Shown piece after piece: positions 39,261 to 45,321 of a stretch of DNA of 64,000 nucleotides; within the stretch, counting starts at the first letter, position 1, and the number at the start of each line of letters is the position of its first letter. A program made the translations under genes and the position numbers. Under the pieces are notes generated by a model, which was not told where the DNA came from, made no database searches, and worked only from the letters and a program-made list of their open reading frames with translations. The DNA comes from a phage: assembly GCA_020279385.1 (NCBI GenBank), contig GCA_020279385.1_4762.1. One strand, 5' to 3'.

Positions 39261-39351
39261 AGTCTCTTCCTCTCTTCGTTTTCGATGCTCTCACTATATC
39301 ACAGAAAAATAAAAAGGGAAACCCCTTTCAGAGTCTCCCTTATAAAAGCCA

Positions 39352-39640: not shown

Positions 39641-39874
39641 TTATTTTACCTCTGGGATATAATCAATTATTAAAGAAAATTCATCTTCTGATACATTATA
39701 GCTATGTGAGATTGTACCCGTCAAGACCTCAAGATCCGGTGATTTGATATTGCACGGATCGATAATCACCGGAACGCCGCAATCTCTCAAAAATAATTTG
39801 GCGAAATACGGCACGAGGTCAGTTTCAAACTCTGCTTCTTCCAGCAAACGGGAAATGTTAATTTTCAATCTCAT
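39641..39874 (-). CDS. Hypothetical protein (77 aa)
   Basis: ORF on early strand. Confidence 0.5.
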
Positions 39875-40391
39875 AAAATTGGTCCAGGCTAGGCAATTCC
39901 TCAGTCAATACATCTTCAACCTTTGGCGCTTTCGGTTTATTGACCGATTCCTCGTAGTTGTTGATTTTATCGTAAATGTCCTGTATGAATGCCTCATCAG
40001 CAATCTGGCACATATCAGCGTCGCGTTCGTCATATACATGATGCACAAAATATTTGTATTTTGCGGCTGTCGCTGTTCTCTCTTTTTTAATGCGCTGTAC
40101 AAAAGCATTAAAGCACGCTTGCGTGATGTAAGCATGAGGATTTTTATACTTTGTCTCGTCAAAATTAATCAAACCCTTGACCGCCGCTTCGATTCCGTCG
40201 TCGATCATTTCTTCGCGCCATGTTTGACTATAACCAGAAAAGTTAAAACGACGTGATAGATTTTTAGAGATTTGCATAATTGCTAGGCCGATTTGATCGC
40301 TCATTGGAACTTGCCGACCTTCTGCTGCAATTTGTTGTTTCCAACGGCAAATTTCTTCGTAAAGCTCTTTATTGTTTACATAATCAGACAC
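39858..40391 (-). CDS. 55: Late transcription sigma factor gp55
   Basis: 177 aa with long identity to T4 gp55 ([64 protein letters not shown]); GTG start with SD GAGGGTG. Confidence 0.95.
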
Positions 40392-40431
40392 TTCGCACCC
40401 TCGCTATTATTTAGGAAATAACCCTTTCGGG

Positions 40432-41901
40432 CTATTCCCCATTGCCATTATACTTTCTTTGCTTAGTTATCCACACTCTAACCATCTCTACTGATTCACC
40501 GTCAGACGGATCAAGAGTTTTTCCTTTTTTCTTCATGCGGTACTTAAATCCGTTAAATCTTGCATTCTCTTGCTCGTTAAAGTCGAACATCTTTTTAAAT
40601 GATTTTCGCCCTTTACGCTCACCGCATTCTAGCGGAATCATTCGGTCTGTTATTACATTGGCATCAGGTAGAAACGTTTTTAGATAATCTACCAACGCCC
40701 AATCAGGAACATATAGATTAACATTCTCCTTGCTCTCGTTGTCTCTCAGGTTACAACGCAAACATAATTGAAATGCTGGTTCCAGATAATCAGACACATG
40801 ACGCGCTTTCAAAAACTCGTTTGTTGGGAGATCGCAACTATTAGCAAGACCTTTTAAAATATCAATCTCCCATCGTTGAGGGTTAAAGCTGAACATCACA
40901 GCAACATTTTTATGATGAATGTAAGAGTTAAGACCATAAGATCCGTAAGGTATCCGCTCACCAATACCATTTGTGCACGCTTCTCGGTCCCGATTAACGG
41001 TATAAATGAAGTCATCGCCACATTCATTTTTAACCATATCAACAAGACGTTCAAAGGTATTGTTTGTTTCTGACTGGTGACGCGACCAGCGTTCGGAGTC
41101 AGTCATAAGGATGATGTTAACTCTATCTGTATTTTTATACTCTTTGAAATATAGTCTGGATTCTAGCGCACTCGGAACAAAATCGCAATTTGCATAGTAT
41201 CGTAGATACTTCCCGCTATATGTATCAAAGAGATTTGCACATGCTATCGTAACCTTTTTAAAGTCTCCCCACGTACCGTGTTTGTTATCGTTCAAGAAAA
41301 CAATTTTCGACCCATTCTTCCGGTGTCCTTCGTTATGTTTTACCATAACGTTGATTTTCTTCTCTAATAACGCCTCATAAAGCCCTCTAAGAGAAGAATC
41401 GATCATATCAGTACCATCCTTTGCACTTTCTATCTTTTCTTTGATAGCGGCCTTCTCAGAGTCTTTTAGAACTAAGTTCTGTAGGCATTCCGATTCGTCG
41501 GCGATTGGTTCGCAATGCTTCGTGATAAGTTCAAGATTAGACTTAAACGGATACTCATTAAATTCAACCAGTTGAGGAACTTCATCAATGTAAAGAGCAT
41601 AATCACCAAACATTTTTGAACGTTCCATATTAGATAACGCTGTATGTGTAATGAATATCACATCAGCACCGTCTTTAACTGATTGCATTATCGACGCTTG
41701 CACTGTCTTAAGGCTTCTTAGTCTGGTGCTATCAATCAAGACAGCACGACCGCCCATTCTTTTAAACTTATTGTAAGATTGTTCACTTAAAACACGAGAT
41801 GGCGAAGCAATAACCGCTTTTTCTTTTGTCTCTAGGACGTGGGAAAGTATAGCATCAGTTTTCCCCGCCGCTGGCAATGCGATTAATGTTTCAATCTTCA
41901 T
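40432..41901 (-). CDS. P-loop NTPase of unknown function (489 aa)
   Basis: N-terminal Walker A (ALPAAGKTDA), Walker B-like (ALYIDEVPQ); no confident family match by eye. Confidence 0.65.
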   Translation of the reverse strand: MKIETLIALPAAGKTDAILSHVLETKEKAVIASPSRVLSEQSYNKFKRMGGRAVLIDSTRLRSLKTVQASIMQSVKDGADVIFITHTALSNMERSKMFGDYALYIDEVPQLVEFNEYPFKSNLELITKHCEPIADESECLQNLVLKDSEKAAIKEKIESAKDGTDMIDSSLRGLYEALLEKKINVMVKHNEGHRKNGSKIVFLNDNKHGTWGDFKKVTIACANLFDTYSGKYLRYYANCDFVPSALESRLYFKEYKNTDRVNIILMTDSERWSRHQSETNNTFERLVDMVKNECGDDFIYTVNRDREACTNGIGERIPYGSYGLNSYIHHKNVAVMFSFNPQRWEIDILKGLANSCDLPTNEFLKARHVSDYLEPAFQLCLRCNLRDNESKENVNLYVPDWALVDYLKTFLPDANVITDRMIPLECGERKGRKSFKKMFDFNEQENARFNGFKYRMKKKGKTLDPSDGESVEMVRVWITKQRKYNGNGE

Positions 41902-42188
41902 TAGAAACCCTTACGTCGTGCTTTCTGGCATTTCTTGATCATTTTATCAGAAATTTCGCGCTTAGGTGCAATCTCTTTCACACCGAAAGCACTAATGCCA
42001 AATTCAGAGAGAATATATTCAACTAACAATTCACGCACACGCGCTTTACCGATATTCACGCCGTTATTTTTCAGATATGTCTGGCCTTCGACTTGCATCA
42101 GATCTAAATCTGCGTCGGTAATATTGATTTCTTCCATGCGCCCAAATCGAGAATAAACCATGTGTGCGATTGCATTGTGTACTAACAT
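41901..42188 (-). CDS. Hypothetical protein (95 aa), coupled to the P-loop NTPase gene
   Basis: SD GAGGAA before ATG at 42188; stop overlaps the NTPase start (ATGA). Confidence 0.5.
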   Translation of the reverse strand: MLVHNAIAHMVYSRFGRMEEINITDADLDLMQVEGQTYLKNNGVNIGKARVRELLVEYILSEFGISAFGVKEIAPKREISDKMIKKCQKARRKGF

Positions 42189-42209
42189 AATATATTCCTC
42201 ACTCAAGAA

Positions 42210-42368
42210 TTACTTAATGATACTTACTTTACCAGATCCATGACAATGAGCGCAACACCCATCACCACGCAATCCTGTTCCGTTACAGTGTTTACACTTC
42301 TTCAACGGTAAAGCCATTATAGCAAATAAAGCAATAATGAATACCGAAACTAAATTCTCAATAATCAT
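42210..42368 (-). CDS. 52-aa membrane microprotein with DnaJ-like Cys-rich zinc-finger motif (not in ORF track)
   Basis: rc reads MIIENLVSVFIIALFAIMALPLKKCKHCNGTGLRGDGCCAHCHGSGKVSIIK; TM helix then CxxCxGxG...CxxCxGxG. Confidence 0.5.
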   Translation of the reverse strand: MIIENLVSVFIIALFAIMALPLKKCKHCNGTGLRGDGCCAHCHGSGKVSIIK

Positions 42369-42627
42369 AAATCGCCCTCAGTTCTTTATAGCCTCCAATG
42401 TGCTCGTTGTCAATGAATATCTGGGGGTATACAAACCGGAGGCTCTTTGAGTTTAGCCTCCCCGCCAGTTCTTCAATCATATCACGGTCGGGAATAATGT
42501 CAACCCCGACCTGCTTGAATACTGGTTTAAGTGTATACGGAATACCCAGATCATCCAGTAGCTTCATTGCACTAATACAACCATAACAATGATAAGCCTC
42601 TTTCGGTATACCGTATATCTCGATCAT
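42358..42627 (-). CDS. nrdH: Glutaredoxin-like protein (NrdH-like)
   Basis: 89 aa; CxxC redox motif (HCYGCISA); thioredoxin-fold size; near nrdG/nrdD. Confidence 0.65.
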   Translation of the reverse strand: MIEIYGIPKEAYHCYGCISAMKLLDDLGIPYTLKPVFKQVGVDIIPDRDMIEELAGRLNSKSLRFVYPQIFIDNEHIGGYKELRAIYDY

Positions 42628-43130
42628 TTCTCAGCCTTTAATCTTTCTAGTTCTTCTTCCAGTTCCTTGATCCGTTGGTCACGTTCAAAGTCACGCTGTA
42701 ACTTAGTGGCAAATACTCGCTTAAACTGATTGTAATCATCGATTTTAAACACTTCTTCTTCGCCATAGCGACGCACAGAAACTTCGTAGTTATTGAAGAA
42801 TTGTTGCATCATTGCATCAGTAGTCAGTTCTGACGACACCACTTTAAAATAACGTTCTTCTGATTGCAAAAACCAGTTGTGCGCGTATTCCCGTACATCA
42901 TCAACATTGCGGCAGGGGTATACCGTGCCATCAATTTCAATCACAGAAACATAATCGATATCTGGTTCATGGCGATCAAACGCAATAACTTTAAATGGAC
43001 GGTCTCCGATAAACTCTGCTATTGCATCATTTGCAACGCTAGAGTTTGCAAAATCTTCTCTCGTTTTATAATCTTTCCACTGATAGGTCATACCAACAAC
43101 AAACATATTACCAACCTCGCTCTTCACCAA
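42624..43130 (-). CDS. Paralog family A member 1 (168 aa)
   Basis: Shares PFKV...IDG..Y core and C-terminal coiled coil with neighbours. Confidence 0.6.
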   Translation of the reverse strand: MVKSEVGNMFVVGMTYQWKDYKTREDFANSSVANDAIAEFIGDRPFKVIAFDRHEPDIDYVSVIEIDGTVYPCRNVDDVREYAHNWFLQSEERYFKVVSSELTTDAMMQQFFNNYEVSVRRYGEEEVFKIDDYNQFKRVFATKLQRDFERDQRIKELEEELERLKAEK

Positions 43131-43656
43131 TCAAAAATTCAACTTCACGACGTTTAATATCTTCTTGAAGGTCTTTAATCTTCTGGCGATCTTGCATGAT
43201 TTCGTCCATCTTGTCAAGTGCTGCAATAAAATCATCGAAACGTTCAAAGGTTTTACCTTCATTTGCTTCGCCAAATTTAACCATTGTCAGACCATAACGA
43301 CTACTAAACAGACGTTTCAACTGTCCAACGATCTTAGAATCATCGTTCACCTTTTCTTCTGGTTCTTTCACTGTTTCAACTTCACGAAAGAATTTTCTAT
43401 CGAATGGACTAAAGAAATATGTTGCAGTCCAAATGTCTTTTCCTGTAGCAGTTTTCGCCGTATGATAAACACCGTCTAGCTCTATTGCATCAATCCATCC
43501 GTTACCCTCGATCTCGATGATGGTAAATGGCTTGTCACCAATAGCTGCACTAATATCGCTGTTAAGTGGAGAAAGAACACCTTCTCCGTTAGTAATAAAC
43601 TCAGTTTTAGCGTTTTCATCTTTCCAAGTGTAAGTTTTACCAATTTCCCATTTCAT
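43108..43656 (-). CDS. Paralog family A member 2 (182 aa)
   Basis: N-terminus MKWEIGKTYTWKD; PFTIIEIEG...IELDGVY core. Confidence 0.6.
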   Translation of the reverse strand: MKWEIGKTYTWKDENAKTEFITNGEGVLSPLNSDISAAIGDKPFTIIEIEGNGWIDAIELDGVYHTAKTATGKDIWTATYFFSPFDRKFFREVETVKEPEEKVNDDSKIVGQLKRLFSSRYGLTMVKFGEANEGKTFERFDDFIAALDKMDEIMQDRQKIKDLQEDIKRREVEFLIGEERGW

Positions 43657-43668
43657 AATATATTCCCC

Positions 43669-44148
43669 TTAACCGATTTTATCAAGTTCGTTTAATGCTT
43701 TCTCTGCTTCCTGTATAGCTTGCACCCTTTCCGGCATTTTGTCAAGAAAATCTTTCAACTCTTCAAAACTGGAGATATGACGCAAGGCGTTAGCACCGAT
43801 AGCCGCATGTGATTTGCATTCAAAGCGGATTTTATAATTATCCATCGCCAACTTGAGAAGATCAATTAATTTAGATTCTTCTGGAATAATAATTTCTTCA
43901 AATCTGCTACGGTCATGATCCAGAAACCAACAAGATAGACCTACATCGGTTGAACTCATATAAGTTCCATCATGAAGATAAACAGACCGCACGTATCCTT
44001 TTTTCGCATCAACCGACGCAACTTTAAACGGTAATCTCAGATATTTCAAATAATCAACATCATACCATTTAAAAAATTGGTTTGCATCTTTTACATCTTT
44101 CCACGCATAGGTCTTACCAGCTTCCCATTTCATAATATCATCTCTCAT
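43669..44148 (-). CDS. Paralog family A member 3 (159 aa)
   Basis: MKWEAGKTYAWKD motif (after short N-extension); PFKVASVD core. Confidence 0.6.
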   Translation of the reverse strand: MRDDIMKWEAGKTYAWKDVKDANQFFKWYDVDYLKYLRLPFKVASVDAKKGYVRSVYLHDGTYMSSTDVGLSCWFLDHDRSRFEEIIIPEESKLIDLLKLAMDNYKIRFECKSHAAIGANALRHISSFEELKDFLDKMPERVQAIQEAEKALNELDKIG

Positions 44149-44674
44149 TTTTGATACGTGATTCTAATTGGATCATACGGTCGCGCGTTTGTTTGTATTC
44201 TCGGATAGCACCGATCCGGCTAGGCATACCATCCAGTACGCTCTTAATACCTTCTAGGGTAGTAATTTTGGCAATGCTATTATGTAACCCCATCTTATCG
44301 ATCAACTGAATGTCGTAGGCTTCCATAAGCAGACCCAGTCGTTCTAAAGTTAGGTCTTCTTCTTTTTCTTCCGAATCTGGAATCTTAGGTTCAATAGTAA
44401 CTTCGGTAAAGAAACGACGCTCACCTGCCCAAAACCACACGCCGGAACAGCCAATAGGGGATTCTTTTAACGTCATAGAGTCGAAATTACTACCAATAAT
44501 AGTAATTTCTCTAACATCACCATCATCGTCAAGGTCTTCTACCCTAAACGGGCGACCAGCCAACAAGTCAACAATACATCTGTTAATAGACGACGAAAAT
44601 TTAGTCAGTTCGGCTTTCGACGCTTCGCATTCAATCTTGTAAGTTTTACCAACTTCCCATTCCATAATAATCAC
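44138..44674 (-). CDS. Paralog family A member 4 (178 aa)
   Basis: MEWEVGKTYKIE motif; PFRVEDLD core. Confidence 0.6.
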   Translation of the reverse strand: MIIMEWEVGKTYKIECEASKAELTKFSSSINRCIVDLLAGRPFRVEDLDDDGDVREITIIGSNFDSMTLKESPIGCSGVWFWAGERRFFTEVTIEPKIPDSEEKEEDLTLERLGLLMEAYDIQLIDKMGLHNSIAKITTLEGIKSVLDGMPSRIGAIREYKQTRDRMIQLESRIKNER

Positions 44675-44675
44675 C

Positions 44676-45179
44676 TCAAATAATTTTCACTGGAATACTA
44701 TTAACAATCTTGTATTGTACTTGATTGTCAGACCCCCGCCACGGCTTCTTCGTTGGCATATCTTTAATATAACGACCATCTATGAACATGTCAACTGATT
44801 CTACAATTTTTCTTTGCTCATCATTCAATTGGTCAAGGGTATAACCGGACCATAGCCAAATATCTTTATTTGGCATCCATGATTTTACTTCATCGATGAT
44901 CCGCTGTACACCCTTTAAATTGCGTTTATACAGTGGATCGCCACCTAAGAATGTTAGCCCCTGAATAAAATCAGGTCTAAGCAGATCCAGAATCAATCCC
45001 ATTGTATCATCTGTGAATGGTTCCCCGTTCTTAGGATTGAGTAGACTGGAATTAAAGCAACCATCACATGCGTGTGAACATCCGGTAACGTAAAGGGAGA
45101 CTCTCACTCCCTCACCGTTAACCATATCACAATCTTTAATATCGGCATAGCGTAGTTTGCCGTATGTATCAGAACTCAT
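44676..45179 (-). CDS. nrdG: Anaerobic ribonucleotide reductase activating protein NrdG (radical SAM)
   Basis: CxxxCxxC cluster (GCSHACDGC); ~165 aa; adjacent to nrdD region. Confidence 0.85.
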   Translation of the reverse strand: MSSDTYGKLRYADIKDCDMVNGEGVRVSLYVTGCSHACDGCFNSSLLNPKNGEPFTDDTMGLILDLLRPDFIQGLTFLGGDPLYKRNLKGVQRIIDEVKSWMPNKDIWLWSGYTLDQLNDEQRKIVESVDMFIDGRYIKDMPTKKPWRGSDNQVQYKIVNSIPVKII

Positions 45180-45321
45180 ATTCAATTACCCCGAACTCGT
45201 TTACAATCTGCGCTTTATAGTAACCACCGCGAGATGCTAATAGATAAGCTGGGCTTAGGTATTCGTATTCACGGATTTCTACTTGTGCGTTTTCAGTTTC
45301 CCAAATCAGTAAAGTCCACAT
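45169..45321 (-). CDS. Possible small protein (50 aa) overlapping nrdG start
   Basis: rc reads MWTLLIWETENAQVEIREYEYLSPAYLLASRGGYYKAQIVNEFGVIEYEF; SD AGGAG upstream. Confidence 0.3.
   Translation of the reverse strand: MWTLLIWETENAQVEIREYEYLSPAYLLASRGGYYKAQIVNEFGVIEYEF

What the first reader, a model, noticed from the sequence alone, without database searches (positions are those of the whole stretch)
40432..42627. Uncharacterised P-loop NTPase cluster beside gene 55
A 489-aa protein with an N-terminal Walker A (ALPAAGKTDA) and a Walker B-like hhhhDE (ALYIDEVPQ) sits where T4 has only small 55.x ORFs. It is translationally coupled (ATGA) to a 95-aa ORF, followed by a 52-aa TM + CxxCxGxG zinc-finger microprotein and an NrdH-like glutaredoxin. 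I could not place the NTPase in any familiar T4 family (not Dda, UvsW, gp41, gp44, Pnk or dNMP kinase by motif order). A large ATPase with coupled partners in a hyperplastic region is the best candidate here for an undescribed module, possibly anti-defence, host takeover or nucleotide metabolism.
Basis: partly seen in the sequence, partly recalled or inferred. Interest (0 to 1): 0.7.

Follow-up and report, generated by a model that had tools for sequence, protein, structure and literature searches.

The report
Uncharacterised XPD/DinG-like helicase in RB49-type phage
The 489-aa "mystery NTPase" next to late-sigma gene 55 of this RB49-like phage is a very divergent DNA-helicase-type motor, shaped like the repair helicases XPD and DinG but without their iron-sulfur cluster; nobody has tested its function, and its small neighbours are ordinary T4 genes, not partners in a new module.

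Summary
The window is a Krischvirus (RB49/JSE/ECD7-like, about 97-98% nucleotide identity).

- **What it lacks:** It has no 4-Cys FeS domain and no DEAD_2/Helicase_C_2 sequence signature.
- **The wider family:** An exhaustive profile search finds 1,367 clusters. About 30% of the proteins retrieved are long forms fused to a primase-like domain plus PriCT-1. Three of the five long-form loci examined sit beside integrases in bacterial islands, which points to DNA replication.
- **The "partners":** The 95-aa ORF is a homolog of T4 gp55.2, a published host topoisomerase I inhibitor found in 1,093 phage records, most of them without the helicase. NrdH is also a standard T4 gene. I found no evidence for an anti-defence role.
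- **Prior art:** A weak helicase hint was published in 2006, and a probably identical family was predicted in 2018.

Verdict: a real, untested, structurally unusual helicase of moderate interest. It is not a new module.

The parts
40432..41901 (-). 489-aa SF2 helicase-type ATPase (ortholog of RB49ORF044c; phrog_2467), with XPD/DinG-like architecture and no FeS cluster
41857..41874 (-). Motif I / Walker A, PAAGKT (residues 10-15)
   Evidence: P10, G13, K14 and T15 are invariant in 38 homologs. The sequence was read directly.
41575..41592 (-). Motif II / Walker B, YIDEVP (residues 104-109). This is a DEVP variant of DExH/D.
   Evidence: D106 and E107 are invariant; Y104, I105, V108 and P109 are at least 90% conserved.
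41257..41568 (-). Insertion of about 100 residues (roughly 112-215) in RecA domain 1 between motifs II and III. This is the position of the XPD/DinG Arch domain (inferred).
40744..40770 (-). Motif VI-like QLCLRCNLR (residues 378-386), the candidate arginine-finger region
   Evidence: Q378, L379, C380, R382 and R386 are invariant in 38 homologs. The corresponding Q382, R386 and R390 of P0049 are invariant in 40 long forms.
40435..40614 (-). Basic helical C-terminal tail (residues about 430-489), specific to the short phage forms
   Evidence: Model helices 443-458 and 468-486. W477 is invariant and R482 is at least 90% conserved. Function unknown.
41901..42188 (-). 95-aa homolog of T4 gp55.2. 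Its stop overlaps the helicase start by 1 nt (TAATG).
   Evidence: Pfam DUF7570 E 1.4e-28. tblastn 41.7% identity to T4, E 1e-11, 1,093 phage records. T4 gp55.2 is an inhibitor of E. coli topoisomerase I (PMC4396842). RB49 annotates this gene as 55.2.
42210..42368 (-). 52-aa predicted membrane-anchored microprotein with two CxxCxGxG repeats (one DnaJ-type zinc centre). Neighbour only; not shown to belong with the helicase.
   Evidence: phrog_3931 E 4e-10. Weak DnaJ_CXXCXGXG and DnaJ hits. Absent between nrdH and 55.2 in RB43.
42358..42627 (-). NrdH-like glutaredoxin (CYGC active-site motif). A conserved T4-type gene and a neighbour only.
   Evidence: Pfam Glutaredoxin 23.4 bits against a cutoff of 22.9. 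phrog_22. TIGR02181 E 1e-7. Annotated nrdH in RB49, JSE, RB43 and phage 65.
39858..40391 (-). Gene 55 late sigma factor, the downstream neighbour that anchors the locus
   Evidence: phrog_234 E 4e-63. RB49 annotation.

Best explanation
The 489-aa protein is an active ATP-driven nucleic-acid motor of helicase superfamily 2. It has two RecA-like domains, an insertion after motif II at the position of the XPD/DinG Arch domain, no iron-sulfur domain, and a short basic helical tail. It is the stand-alone (helicase-only) form of a large helicase family restricted to viruses and mobile elements. In other members, the same helicase core is fused to a primase-like domain plus PriCT-1, and the gene occupies the replication-gene slot of small integrative islands.

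The most likely role in the phage is as an accessory DNA helicase for replication or recombination. It would be made early, from the leftward transcription unit that also carries nrdG, nrdH, 55.2 and 55. It would bind single-stranded DNA and use ATP to translocate and open duplex, R-loop or D-loop structures at origins or forks.

- **Shown:** gene reality and conservation, the catalytic motifs, the fold class, the absence of FeS cysteines, and the primase fusions and island contexts of relatives.
- **Inferred:** DNA (rather than RNA) as substrate, 5'-3' polarity by analogy with XPD/DinG, early expression, and the replication/recombination role.

The 1-nt overlap with gene 55.2 most likely reflects only co-expression.
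For: - **Motifs:** Invariant GKT, DE and Q..R..R across 38 homologs at 32-74% identity.
- **Selection:** pN/pS about 0.05 against RB49, from small counts.
- **Model:** pLDDT 88.3.
- **Fold, long form:** An independently modelled distant long form (P0049, 24% identity to the window protein) gives the same top five.
- **Family size:** 1,367 clusters at 50% identity with E 1e-3 or better. 59 of the 194 proteins retrieved are 700-900 aa; 56 of these have the helicase at the N-terminus.
- **Primase-like extension:** It matches PriCT_1 in 4 of 16 (best E 1.5e-4). It matches primase-annotated PHROGs: phrog_9765 in 6 of 16 (1.1e-12), phrog_2135 in 2 of 16 (7.9e-12) and phrog_17236 in 1 of 16.
- **Reverse order:** P0125 has the domains reversed, with N-terminal IVFDFDEDED and GSGHVYVKV motifs that I read as AEP motifs I and II.
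- **Contexts:** Long forms lie next to integrases in 3 of 5 loci examined, once with AlpA.
- **Literature:** PMC5862659 reports AEP primases fused to remote SF2-like helicases whose closest homologs are in some T4-like phages (pVOG1685), and predicts a new helicase family of viruses and plasmids. PMC1524935 lists RB49ORF044c with a weak DEAD-helicase Pfam hit (E 0.069) and argues that novel ORFs co-oriented with early genes are expressed early.
Against: - No biochemical or genetic data exist for any member.
- Sequence similarity to DinG is undetectable (hhalign not significant). The only Pfam hit is the N-terminal DEAD domain, barely above its cutoff (27.3 against 26 bits).
- The phage form lacks the primase domain, and T4-like phages already encode gp41, gp61, UvsW and usually Dda. 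A replication role is therefore not required and may be redundant.
- The primase fold of the long-form extension was not confirmed structurally (one search is dominated by helicase hits; PDB profile search empty; hhalign to a motif-bearing AEP-like domain not significant).
- Promoter-like matches are not clearly above chance (21 found against 16.5 +/- 3.3 expected), so expression timing is inferred only.
- I could not verify that pVOG1685 is this family, because Figure S5D is held only as an image.
Confidence: 0.6

Rival explanations
1. Anti-defence or host-takeover effector. The motor would strip, displace or mislead a host immunity or repair complex. It would fill the same slot where T4 carries gp55.1, which interferes with host UvrA/NER and FolD.
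For: - The gene lies in a plastic region and replaces 55.1.
- Its neighbour gp55.2 is a host-protein modulator (PMC4396842).
- The gene is present in only a subset of T4-like genera.
- Structurally related helicases (CasDinG, Hna, DdmD) work in defence, so a mimic or antagonist is conceivable.
Against: - There is no meaningful PADLOC hit.
- The position is syntenic and the gene is vertically conserved across distant genera at 35-42% identity, unlike patchy anti-defence genes.
- The wider family is fused to primase-like domains in the replication slot of integrative elements.
- Presence does not track DNA modification status. Aeromonas phage 25 has both a gp42 homolog and the helicase.
Confidence: 0.15
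2. Functional partner of gp55.2 and host topoisomerase I. The helicase and the Topo I-binding protein would act together, like RecQ-Topo III or reverse gyrase, to manage supercoils or resolve replication and recombination intermediates.
For: - The 55.2 stop overlaps the helicase start in the window and in RB49, RB43 and Aeromonas phage 65.
- The two genes are 6 nt apart in Proteus phage phiP4-3.
- T4 gp55.2 acts on Topo I (PMC4396842).
Against: - gp55.2 occurs in 1,093 records against 244 for the helicase, and it works in T4 without the helicase.
- In Aeromonas phage 25 and Serratia PS2 other genes lie between the two.
- None of the loci examined outside the T4-like phages showed a DUF7570 neighbour in the precomputed Pfam lists.
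- No co-folding could be run.
Confidence: 0.1
3. RNA helicase or RNA chaperone of the DEAD-box type, acting on phage or host transcripts.
For: - The only significant Pfam hit is PF00270 DEAD (16 of 38 members).
- Motif Ia, SPSRVLSEQS, resembles the DEAD-box motif PTRELAxQ (from memory). The hhalign alignment to E. coli RhlE is colinear over motifs I-II.
- The adjacent paralog array shows weak GoF-like (mRNA metabolism) similarity.
Against: - There is no Q motif, since the protein begins 9 residues before the P-loop. Motif II is DEVP, not DEAD, and there is no SAT motif.
- The hhalign match to RhlE is not significant (E 0.04).
- Relatives are fused to DNA-primase-like domains.
Confidence: 0.1

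Closest known systems
XPD/Rad3/DinG family SF2 DNA helicases, especially FeS-less members such as type IV CRISPR CasDinG
   Different: Sequence identity is only 9-16%. There are no Pfam DEAD_2 or Helicase_C_2 hits, and hhalign to E. coli DinG is not significant. There is no 4-Cys FeS domain, because only C130 and C380 are invariant and only about 60 residues separate motifs Ia and II. At 489 aa it is much smaller than the 550-740 aa of those helicases. Motif II is DEVP rather than DEAH. Polarity and substrate are untested.
pVOG1685/pVOG9714 'novel helicases of viruses and plasmids' (Kazlauskas et al. 2018, PMC5862659), equivalent to phrog_2467/phrog_31024
   Same: They are described as uncharacterised proteins of some T4-like phages with only remote SF2 similarity, whose homologs are fused to AEP primases of mobile elements. 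My searches reproduce this picture independently. The window protein matches phrog_2467 end to end (E 3e-175).
   Different: Identity with pVOG1685 could not be verified, because the alignment figure is held only as an image. That paper describes the primase-N/helicase-C order. Most fusions I found have the opposite order, helicase-N then primase-like domain then PriCT-1, with at least one primase-N example (P0125). The XPD/DinG-like architecture is not mentioned in the passages I read.
Primase-helicase replication proteins of integrative satellites and plasmids (e.g. P4 alpha-type proteins, prim-pol plus helicase fusions)
   Same: Long-form relatives combine a primase-like domain, PriCT-1 and a helicase in one polypeptide. 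They sit next to integrase and AlpA genes, which is the layout of P4-like elements (the P4 layout is from my own knowledge).
   Different: Those proteins use SF3, SF4 or RepA-type helicases C-terminal to the primase. Here the helicase is SF2 and usually N-terminal. The window protein has no primase domain at all.
T4 UvsW (SF2) and Dda (SF1B), the known accessory helicases of T4-like phages
   Same: They are accessory DNA helicases of the same phage group, encoded among early genes.

Membership tests
Superfamily 2 helicase-type ATPases | Two tandem RecA-like domains with Walker A (motif I), Walker B DExx (motif II) and a motif VI arginine-containing element, in colinear order | tested here: met
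XPD/Rad3/DinG family | 4Fe-4S cluster domain with four conserved cysteines inserted in RecA1 between motifs Ia and II | tested here: not met
   Only two cysteines (C130, C380) are conserved in 38 homologs, and neither lies between motifs Ia and II. That interval is only about 60 residues. Some bona fide relatives (CasDinG, Gram-positive DinG) also lack the cluster (my knowledge).
XPD/Rad3/DinG family | Arch domain inserted in RecA1 after motif II | tested here: inconclusive
   An insertion of about 100 residues lies at that position, and 70-120 more residues align to XPD/DinG than to plain SF2 cores. No residue-level superposition was available to prove that the insertion is the Arch.
XPD/Rad3/DinG family | Sequence signature (Pfam DEAD_2 PF06733 / Helicase_C_2 PF13307; DEAH box) | tested here: not met
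   Neither model is hit in any of the 38 members at E 1 or better. Motif II is DEVP. hhalign to E. coli DinG has probability below 1%.
XPD/Rad3/DinG family | 5'-3' ssDNA translocation and unwinding | not testable with these tools
   This requires biochemistry.
DEAD-box RNA helicases | Q motif upstream of motif I, D-E-A-D motif II, SAT motif III | tested here: not met
   The protein starts 9 residues before the P-loop. Motif II is DEVP and there is no SAT. hhalign to RhlE gives E 0.04, not significant.
phrog_2467 (probably pVOG1685) virus/MGE helicase family | Full-length match to the family profile | tested here: met
   E 3.1e-175 over residues 1-489, against profile positions 8-502 of 502. 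Equivalence to pVOG1685 was not verified.
MGE helicase-primase fusion proteins (long forms, phrog_31024-like) | Primase-like alpha/beta domain plus PriCT-1 helical bundle fused to the helicase | tested here: not met
   The window protein ends at residue 489 after a 60-residue basic tail. It matches phrog_31024 only over the helicase part (profile positions 11-471 of 893). It is the stand-alone form.
T4 gp55.2 (DUF7570), for the 95-aa neighbour | Full-length profile match and conserved position upstream of the gene-55 region | tested here: met
   DUF7570 E 1.4e-28, profile positions 1-94 of 94. 41.7% identity to T4. Same position as in T4 and RB49. Topo I inhibition by this ortholog was not tested.

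The most novel reading that the evidence does not exclude
The FeS-less, minimal XPD/DinG-like helicases of this family may be a distinct class of replication-initiation helicase for viruses and mobile elements: an SF2 motor that opens origins and works with an AEP primase, functionally like herpesvirus UL9 or UL5-UL52. The RB49, RB43 and Aeromonas-type T4-like phages would keep a stand-alone copy that gives them an origin- or fork-opening route T4 itself lacks, possibly coordinated with Topo I control through the overlapping gene 55.2.
Probability: 0.15. Interest if true: 0.65.

Novelty: new variant of a known kind. Interest (0 to 1): 0.4.

Why it matters
T4-like phages are the reference system for replication and recombination enzymology. 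Yet a helicase-type motor conserved in about 240 sequenced relatives, including therapy candidates such as JSE, phi1 and ECD7, has never been tested. The same core is used by more than a thousand clusters of phage and island proteins. Many of these are fused to a primase-like domain, in integrative islands that in two of the examined cases carry defence cargo. Defining its substrate and polarity would annotate a large block of viral "dark matter". It would also show how such islands replicate, and whether an XPD-like architecture can work without the FeS domain as a minimal helicase. The result corrects the idea of a novel multi-gene module here: the small neighbours are known T4 genes.

Tried and rejected
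1. **PDB sequence searches.** The single sequence, the family profile and the C-terminal-extension profile all found nothing.
2. **NCBIfam and PADLOC.** NCBIfam found nothing and PADLOC gave one marginal hit (E 0.0089) for the helicase.
3. **hhalign of the family profile.** The comparisons with E. coli DinG and RhlE were not significant.
4. **gp55.1 as a helicase remnant.** Rejected: there is no similarity.
5. **Helicase restricted to phages without hydroxymethyl-cytosine.** Rejected: Aeromonas phage 25 has both a gp42 homolog and the helicase, although RB49 itself has unmodified DNA (PMC4041780).
6. **The "DprA-like" neighbour in Aeromonas phages as a recombination clue.** The annotation has no Pfam support.
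8. **Promoter and terminator scan.** Promoter-like matches were not clearly above chance and terminator-like matches were no more than expected.
9. **AFDB50 fold library.** Not available.
10. **Co-folding of the helicase with gp55.2.** Not possible with the tools provided.
Full report
**1. What is in the sequence**

All genes in 38-46 kb run on the minus strand. The region is 96.6-97.9% identical in nucleotides to Krischvirus genomes (ECD7, PHB13, JSE, RB49, phi1), so the window comes from an RB49-like T4-type phage.

Read in the direction of transcription, the order is as follows:
- nrdG (44676-45185);
- four tandem paralogs of phrog_5347 (42624-44674);
- an NrdH-like glutaredoxin (42358-42627);
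- a 52-aa ORF with a hydrophobic N-terminus and two CxxCxGxG repeats (42210-42368);
- a 95-aa ORF (41901-42188);
- the 489-aa ORF (40432-41901);
- gene 55 (39858-40391);
- a-gt.5-like and a-gt.4-like ORFs;
- gene 47.

One detail is wrong. The 95-aa ORF and the 489-aa ORF overlap by one base as TAATG (41899-41903). The ATGA overlap is at the nrdH start.

T4 has only the 71-aa gene 55.1 between 55.2 and 55. gp55.1 shows no similarity to the helicase family.

**2. The gene is real and under constraint**

tblastn finds the protein in 244 phage records. It is at least 95% identical in Krischvirus. It is 35-42% identical over its full length in T4-like phages of Proteus, Serratia, Erwinia, Morganella, Aeromonas (44RR, 25, 31, 65, PX29 types) and the RB43 group (Cronobacter, Citrobacter, Klebsiella, Enterobacter). 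All copies are annotated as hypothetical.

Against RB49 the gene has 11 synonymous and 2 non-synonymous differences (pN/pS about 0.05, small counts). An alignment of 38 homologs at 32-74% identity has 49 invariant columns. These include P10, G13, K14, T15 (motif I), D106 and E107 (motif II), and Q378, C380, R382, R386 (a motif VI-like QxxxRxxxR).

**3. What it is**

Sequence methods say little:
- phrog_2467, unknown function (E 3e-175);
- Pfam DEAD/DEAH N-terminal domain at 27.3 bits, just over the cutoff of 26;
- no meaningful match in NCBIfam, PADLOC or the PDB sequences.

An AlphaFold2 model built on the 38-sequence alignment is confident (mean pLDDT 88.3, pTM 0.77).

| Search | Best matches | Next tier |
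|---|---|---|
| Foldseek vs PDB | XPD, DinG, CasDinG, Rad3 fill the top 15 (E 3e-10 to 9e-7, TM 0.37-0.50) | other helicase superfamilies |

P0049 is a distant relative of 799 aa and 24% identity, modelled separately, so the architecture holds across the family.

The model places an insertion of about 100 residues (roughly 112-215) in RecA1 between motif II and the next core strand. XPD and DinG carry their Arch domain at that position. The extra 70-120 aligned residues suggest that this insertion is matched, but I had no residue-level superposition, so that step is inferred.

The family lacks the other hallmark of XPD/DinG. Only two cysteines are conserved, neither lies between motifs Ia and II, and that interval is only about 60 residues. 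No member hits Pfam DEAD_2 or Helicase_C_2, and profile comparison with E. coli DinG is not significant.

The protein therefore works like, and is shaped like, a minimal FeS-less XPD/DinG helicase. I do not file it as a member of that family.

**4. The wider family points to replication**

An exhaustive profile search of 1.84 billion representative proteins found 1,367 clusters with E 1e-3 or better, and 801 with E 1e-10 or better. Of the 194 proteins retrieved, 124 are 450-600 aa and 59 are 700-900 aa. In 56 of the long ones the helicase is N-terminal and is followed by an extension of 300-450 residues.

Evidence on that extension:
- It carries conserved LDxDGG, NTxS...RYR..IPT, GxDxSK...SxFYxP and G..N..FF motifs.
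- The P0049 model shows it as an alpha/beta domain followed by a four-helix bundle.
- The bundle matches Pfam PriCT_1 in 4 of 16 members (best E 1.5e-4).
- The alpha/beta part matches PHROGs annotated as DNA primase: phrog_9765 in 6 of 16 (1.1e-12), phrog_2135 in 2 of 16 (7.9e-12), phrog_17236 in 1 of 16 (1.7e-9).
- One protein (P0125) has the reverse order. Its N-terminal IVFDFDEDED and GSGHVYVKV motifs read, from my knowledge of the family, as archaeo-eukaryotic primase motifs I and II.

I could not confirm the primase fold structurally.

I examined five long-form loci:
- L010 and L013 have an integrase immediately upstream.
- L015 has an AlpA-type gene upstream and an integrase downstream, with GmrSD and an R-M/Vsr cargo.
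- L009 has a resolvase and a type I R-M system.
- The P0049 contig is short and uninformative.

This is the place a replication primase-helicase occupies in P4-like integrative elements (my knowledge). Public sources call these proteins hypothetical or "DEAD/DEAH box helicase family protein".

**5. What was already known**

Nolan et al. 2006 listed RB49ORF044c with a weak DEAD-helicase Pfam hit (E 0.069). They argued that novel ORFs co-oriented with early genes are expressed early (PMC1524935).

Kazlauskas et al. 2018 described AEP primases of mobile elements fused to domains with "only remote similarity" to SF2 helicases. [quoted passage not shown] This is very probably the same family, but the alignment figure is held only as an image, so I could not verify it.

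I found no functional study and no mention of the XPD/DinG-like architecture.

**6. The "partners"**

The 95-aa ORF is a homolog of T4 gp55.2 (Pfam DUF7570 E 1.4e-28; 41.7% identity to T4). T4 gp55.2 is an inhibitor of E. coli topoisomerase I that improves phage fitness (PMC4396842). It occurs in 1,093 phage records, most without the helicase, including T4, T2 and T6.

Its position relative to the helicase varies:
- Its stop overlaps the helicase start in the window, RB49, RB43 and Aeromonas phage 65.
- It is 6 nt away in Proteus phage phiP4-3.
- Other genes intervene in Aeromonas phage 25 and Serratia PS2.

NrdH is a standard T4 gene. The 52-aa zinc-finger microprotein (phrog_3931) is missing from RB43.

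The locus is therefore the ordinary nrdG-to-55 early region, with the helicase in the slot where T4 has 55.1. It is not a dedicated module.

**7. Most likely mechanism and rivals**

Best supported (confidence about 0.6): an ATP-driven DNA helicase or translocase made early, acting as an accessory enzyme in replication or recombination by opening duplex, R-loop or D-loop structures.
- *Shown:* the fold class, the motifs and the family's primase and island associations.
- *Inferred:* the substrate, the polarity (5'-3' by analogy), the timing and the role.

Rivals:
- An anti-defence or host-takeover effector (0.15). No positive evidence supports it, and the syntenic vertical conservation and primase fusions argue against it.
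- A functional partner of gp55.2 and Topo I (0.1). Gene overlap in several genera supports it, but gp55.2 is widespread without the helicase.
- An RNA helicase (0.1). The weak DEAD hit supports it, but the Q, DEAD and SAT motifs are absent, and the best structural and fusion evidence points to DNA.

The idea that the gene marks phages without hydroxymethyl-cytosine fails. RB49 DNA is unmodified (PMC4041780), but Aeromonas phage 25 has both a gp42 homolog and the helicase.

**8. Verdict**

The interpretation as an unplaceable NTPase heading a novel module is not supported.

It is a new variant of a known kind: a minimal, FeS-less, XPD/DinG-shaped SF2 helicase belonging to a large virus/MGE family. 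That family has already been flagged in the literature as a predicted new helicase family. Interest is moderate (0.4). It is a good target for biochemistry, and it is relevant to how primase-helicase islands replicate, but it would not surprise a specialist.

Noticed in passing
window 42624-44674 (-): Four tandem paralogous genes (168, 182, 159 and 178 aa). The two scanned (42624-43130, 43108-43656) match phrog_5347 (unknown function), with weak N-terminal similarity to PHROGs annotated 'GoF mRNA metabolism modulator'. The other two (43669-44148, 44138-44674) were assigned from their shared N-terminal sequence. RB49 has four ORFs here too, but of 158, 274, 154 and 175 aa, so the array varies within the genus.
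   Followed up: no
window 39261-39351: Only 91 nt separate gene 47 from the a-gt.4-like ORF. RB49 carries a 184-aa HNH/AP2 homing-endonuclease ORF (RB49ORF040c) at this spot, so this phage lacks that mobile endonuclease.
   Followed up: partly
window 40392-40431 (-): A short CCCGAAAGGG hairpin followed by TTATTT lies directly after the helicase stop codon and before the GTG start of gene 55. The terminator scan did not call it.
   Followed up: no
L015:1-13804; L009:4552-8486: The bacterial integrative islands that carry the long helicase-primase forms also carry defence cargo. L015 has GmrSD, a Dcm-like methylase, RE_HindVP and Vsr. L009 has type I R-M HsdM/HsdS and a resolvase. These look like small self-replicating defence islands.
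   Followed up: partly
L011:6444-9497 and L012:1480-4533: In a 146-kb phage-like metagenomic contig, a short-form helicase (P0056) follows a 495-aa protein made of five CapR-homology repeats and an N6/N4 DNA methyltransferase. The significance is unknown.
   Followed up: no
L004:2929-3504 (Aeromonas phage 25 PHG25ORF050c): The ORF whose end overlaps the helicase start in Aeromonas phage 25 and AS-gz is annotated 'DprA-like DNA recombination-mediator protein' in RefSeq. It has no Pfam hit at E 0.01 or better, so the annotation looks unsupported.
   Followed up: partly
window 42210-42368 (-): The 52-aa ORF pairs a predicted transmembrane helix with a single DnaJ-type CxxCxGxG...CxxCxGxG zinc centre (phrog_3931). 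It has weak similarity to the DnaJ zinc domain and to anti-TRAP. A membrane-anchored mini zinc finger of unknown role.
   Followed up: no
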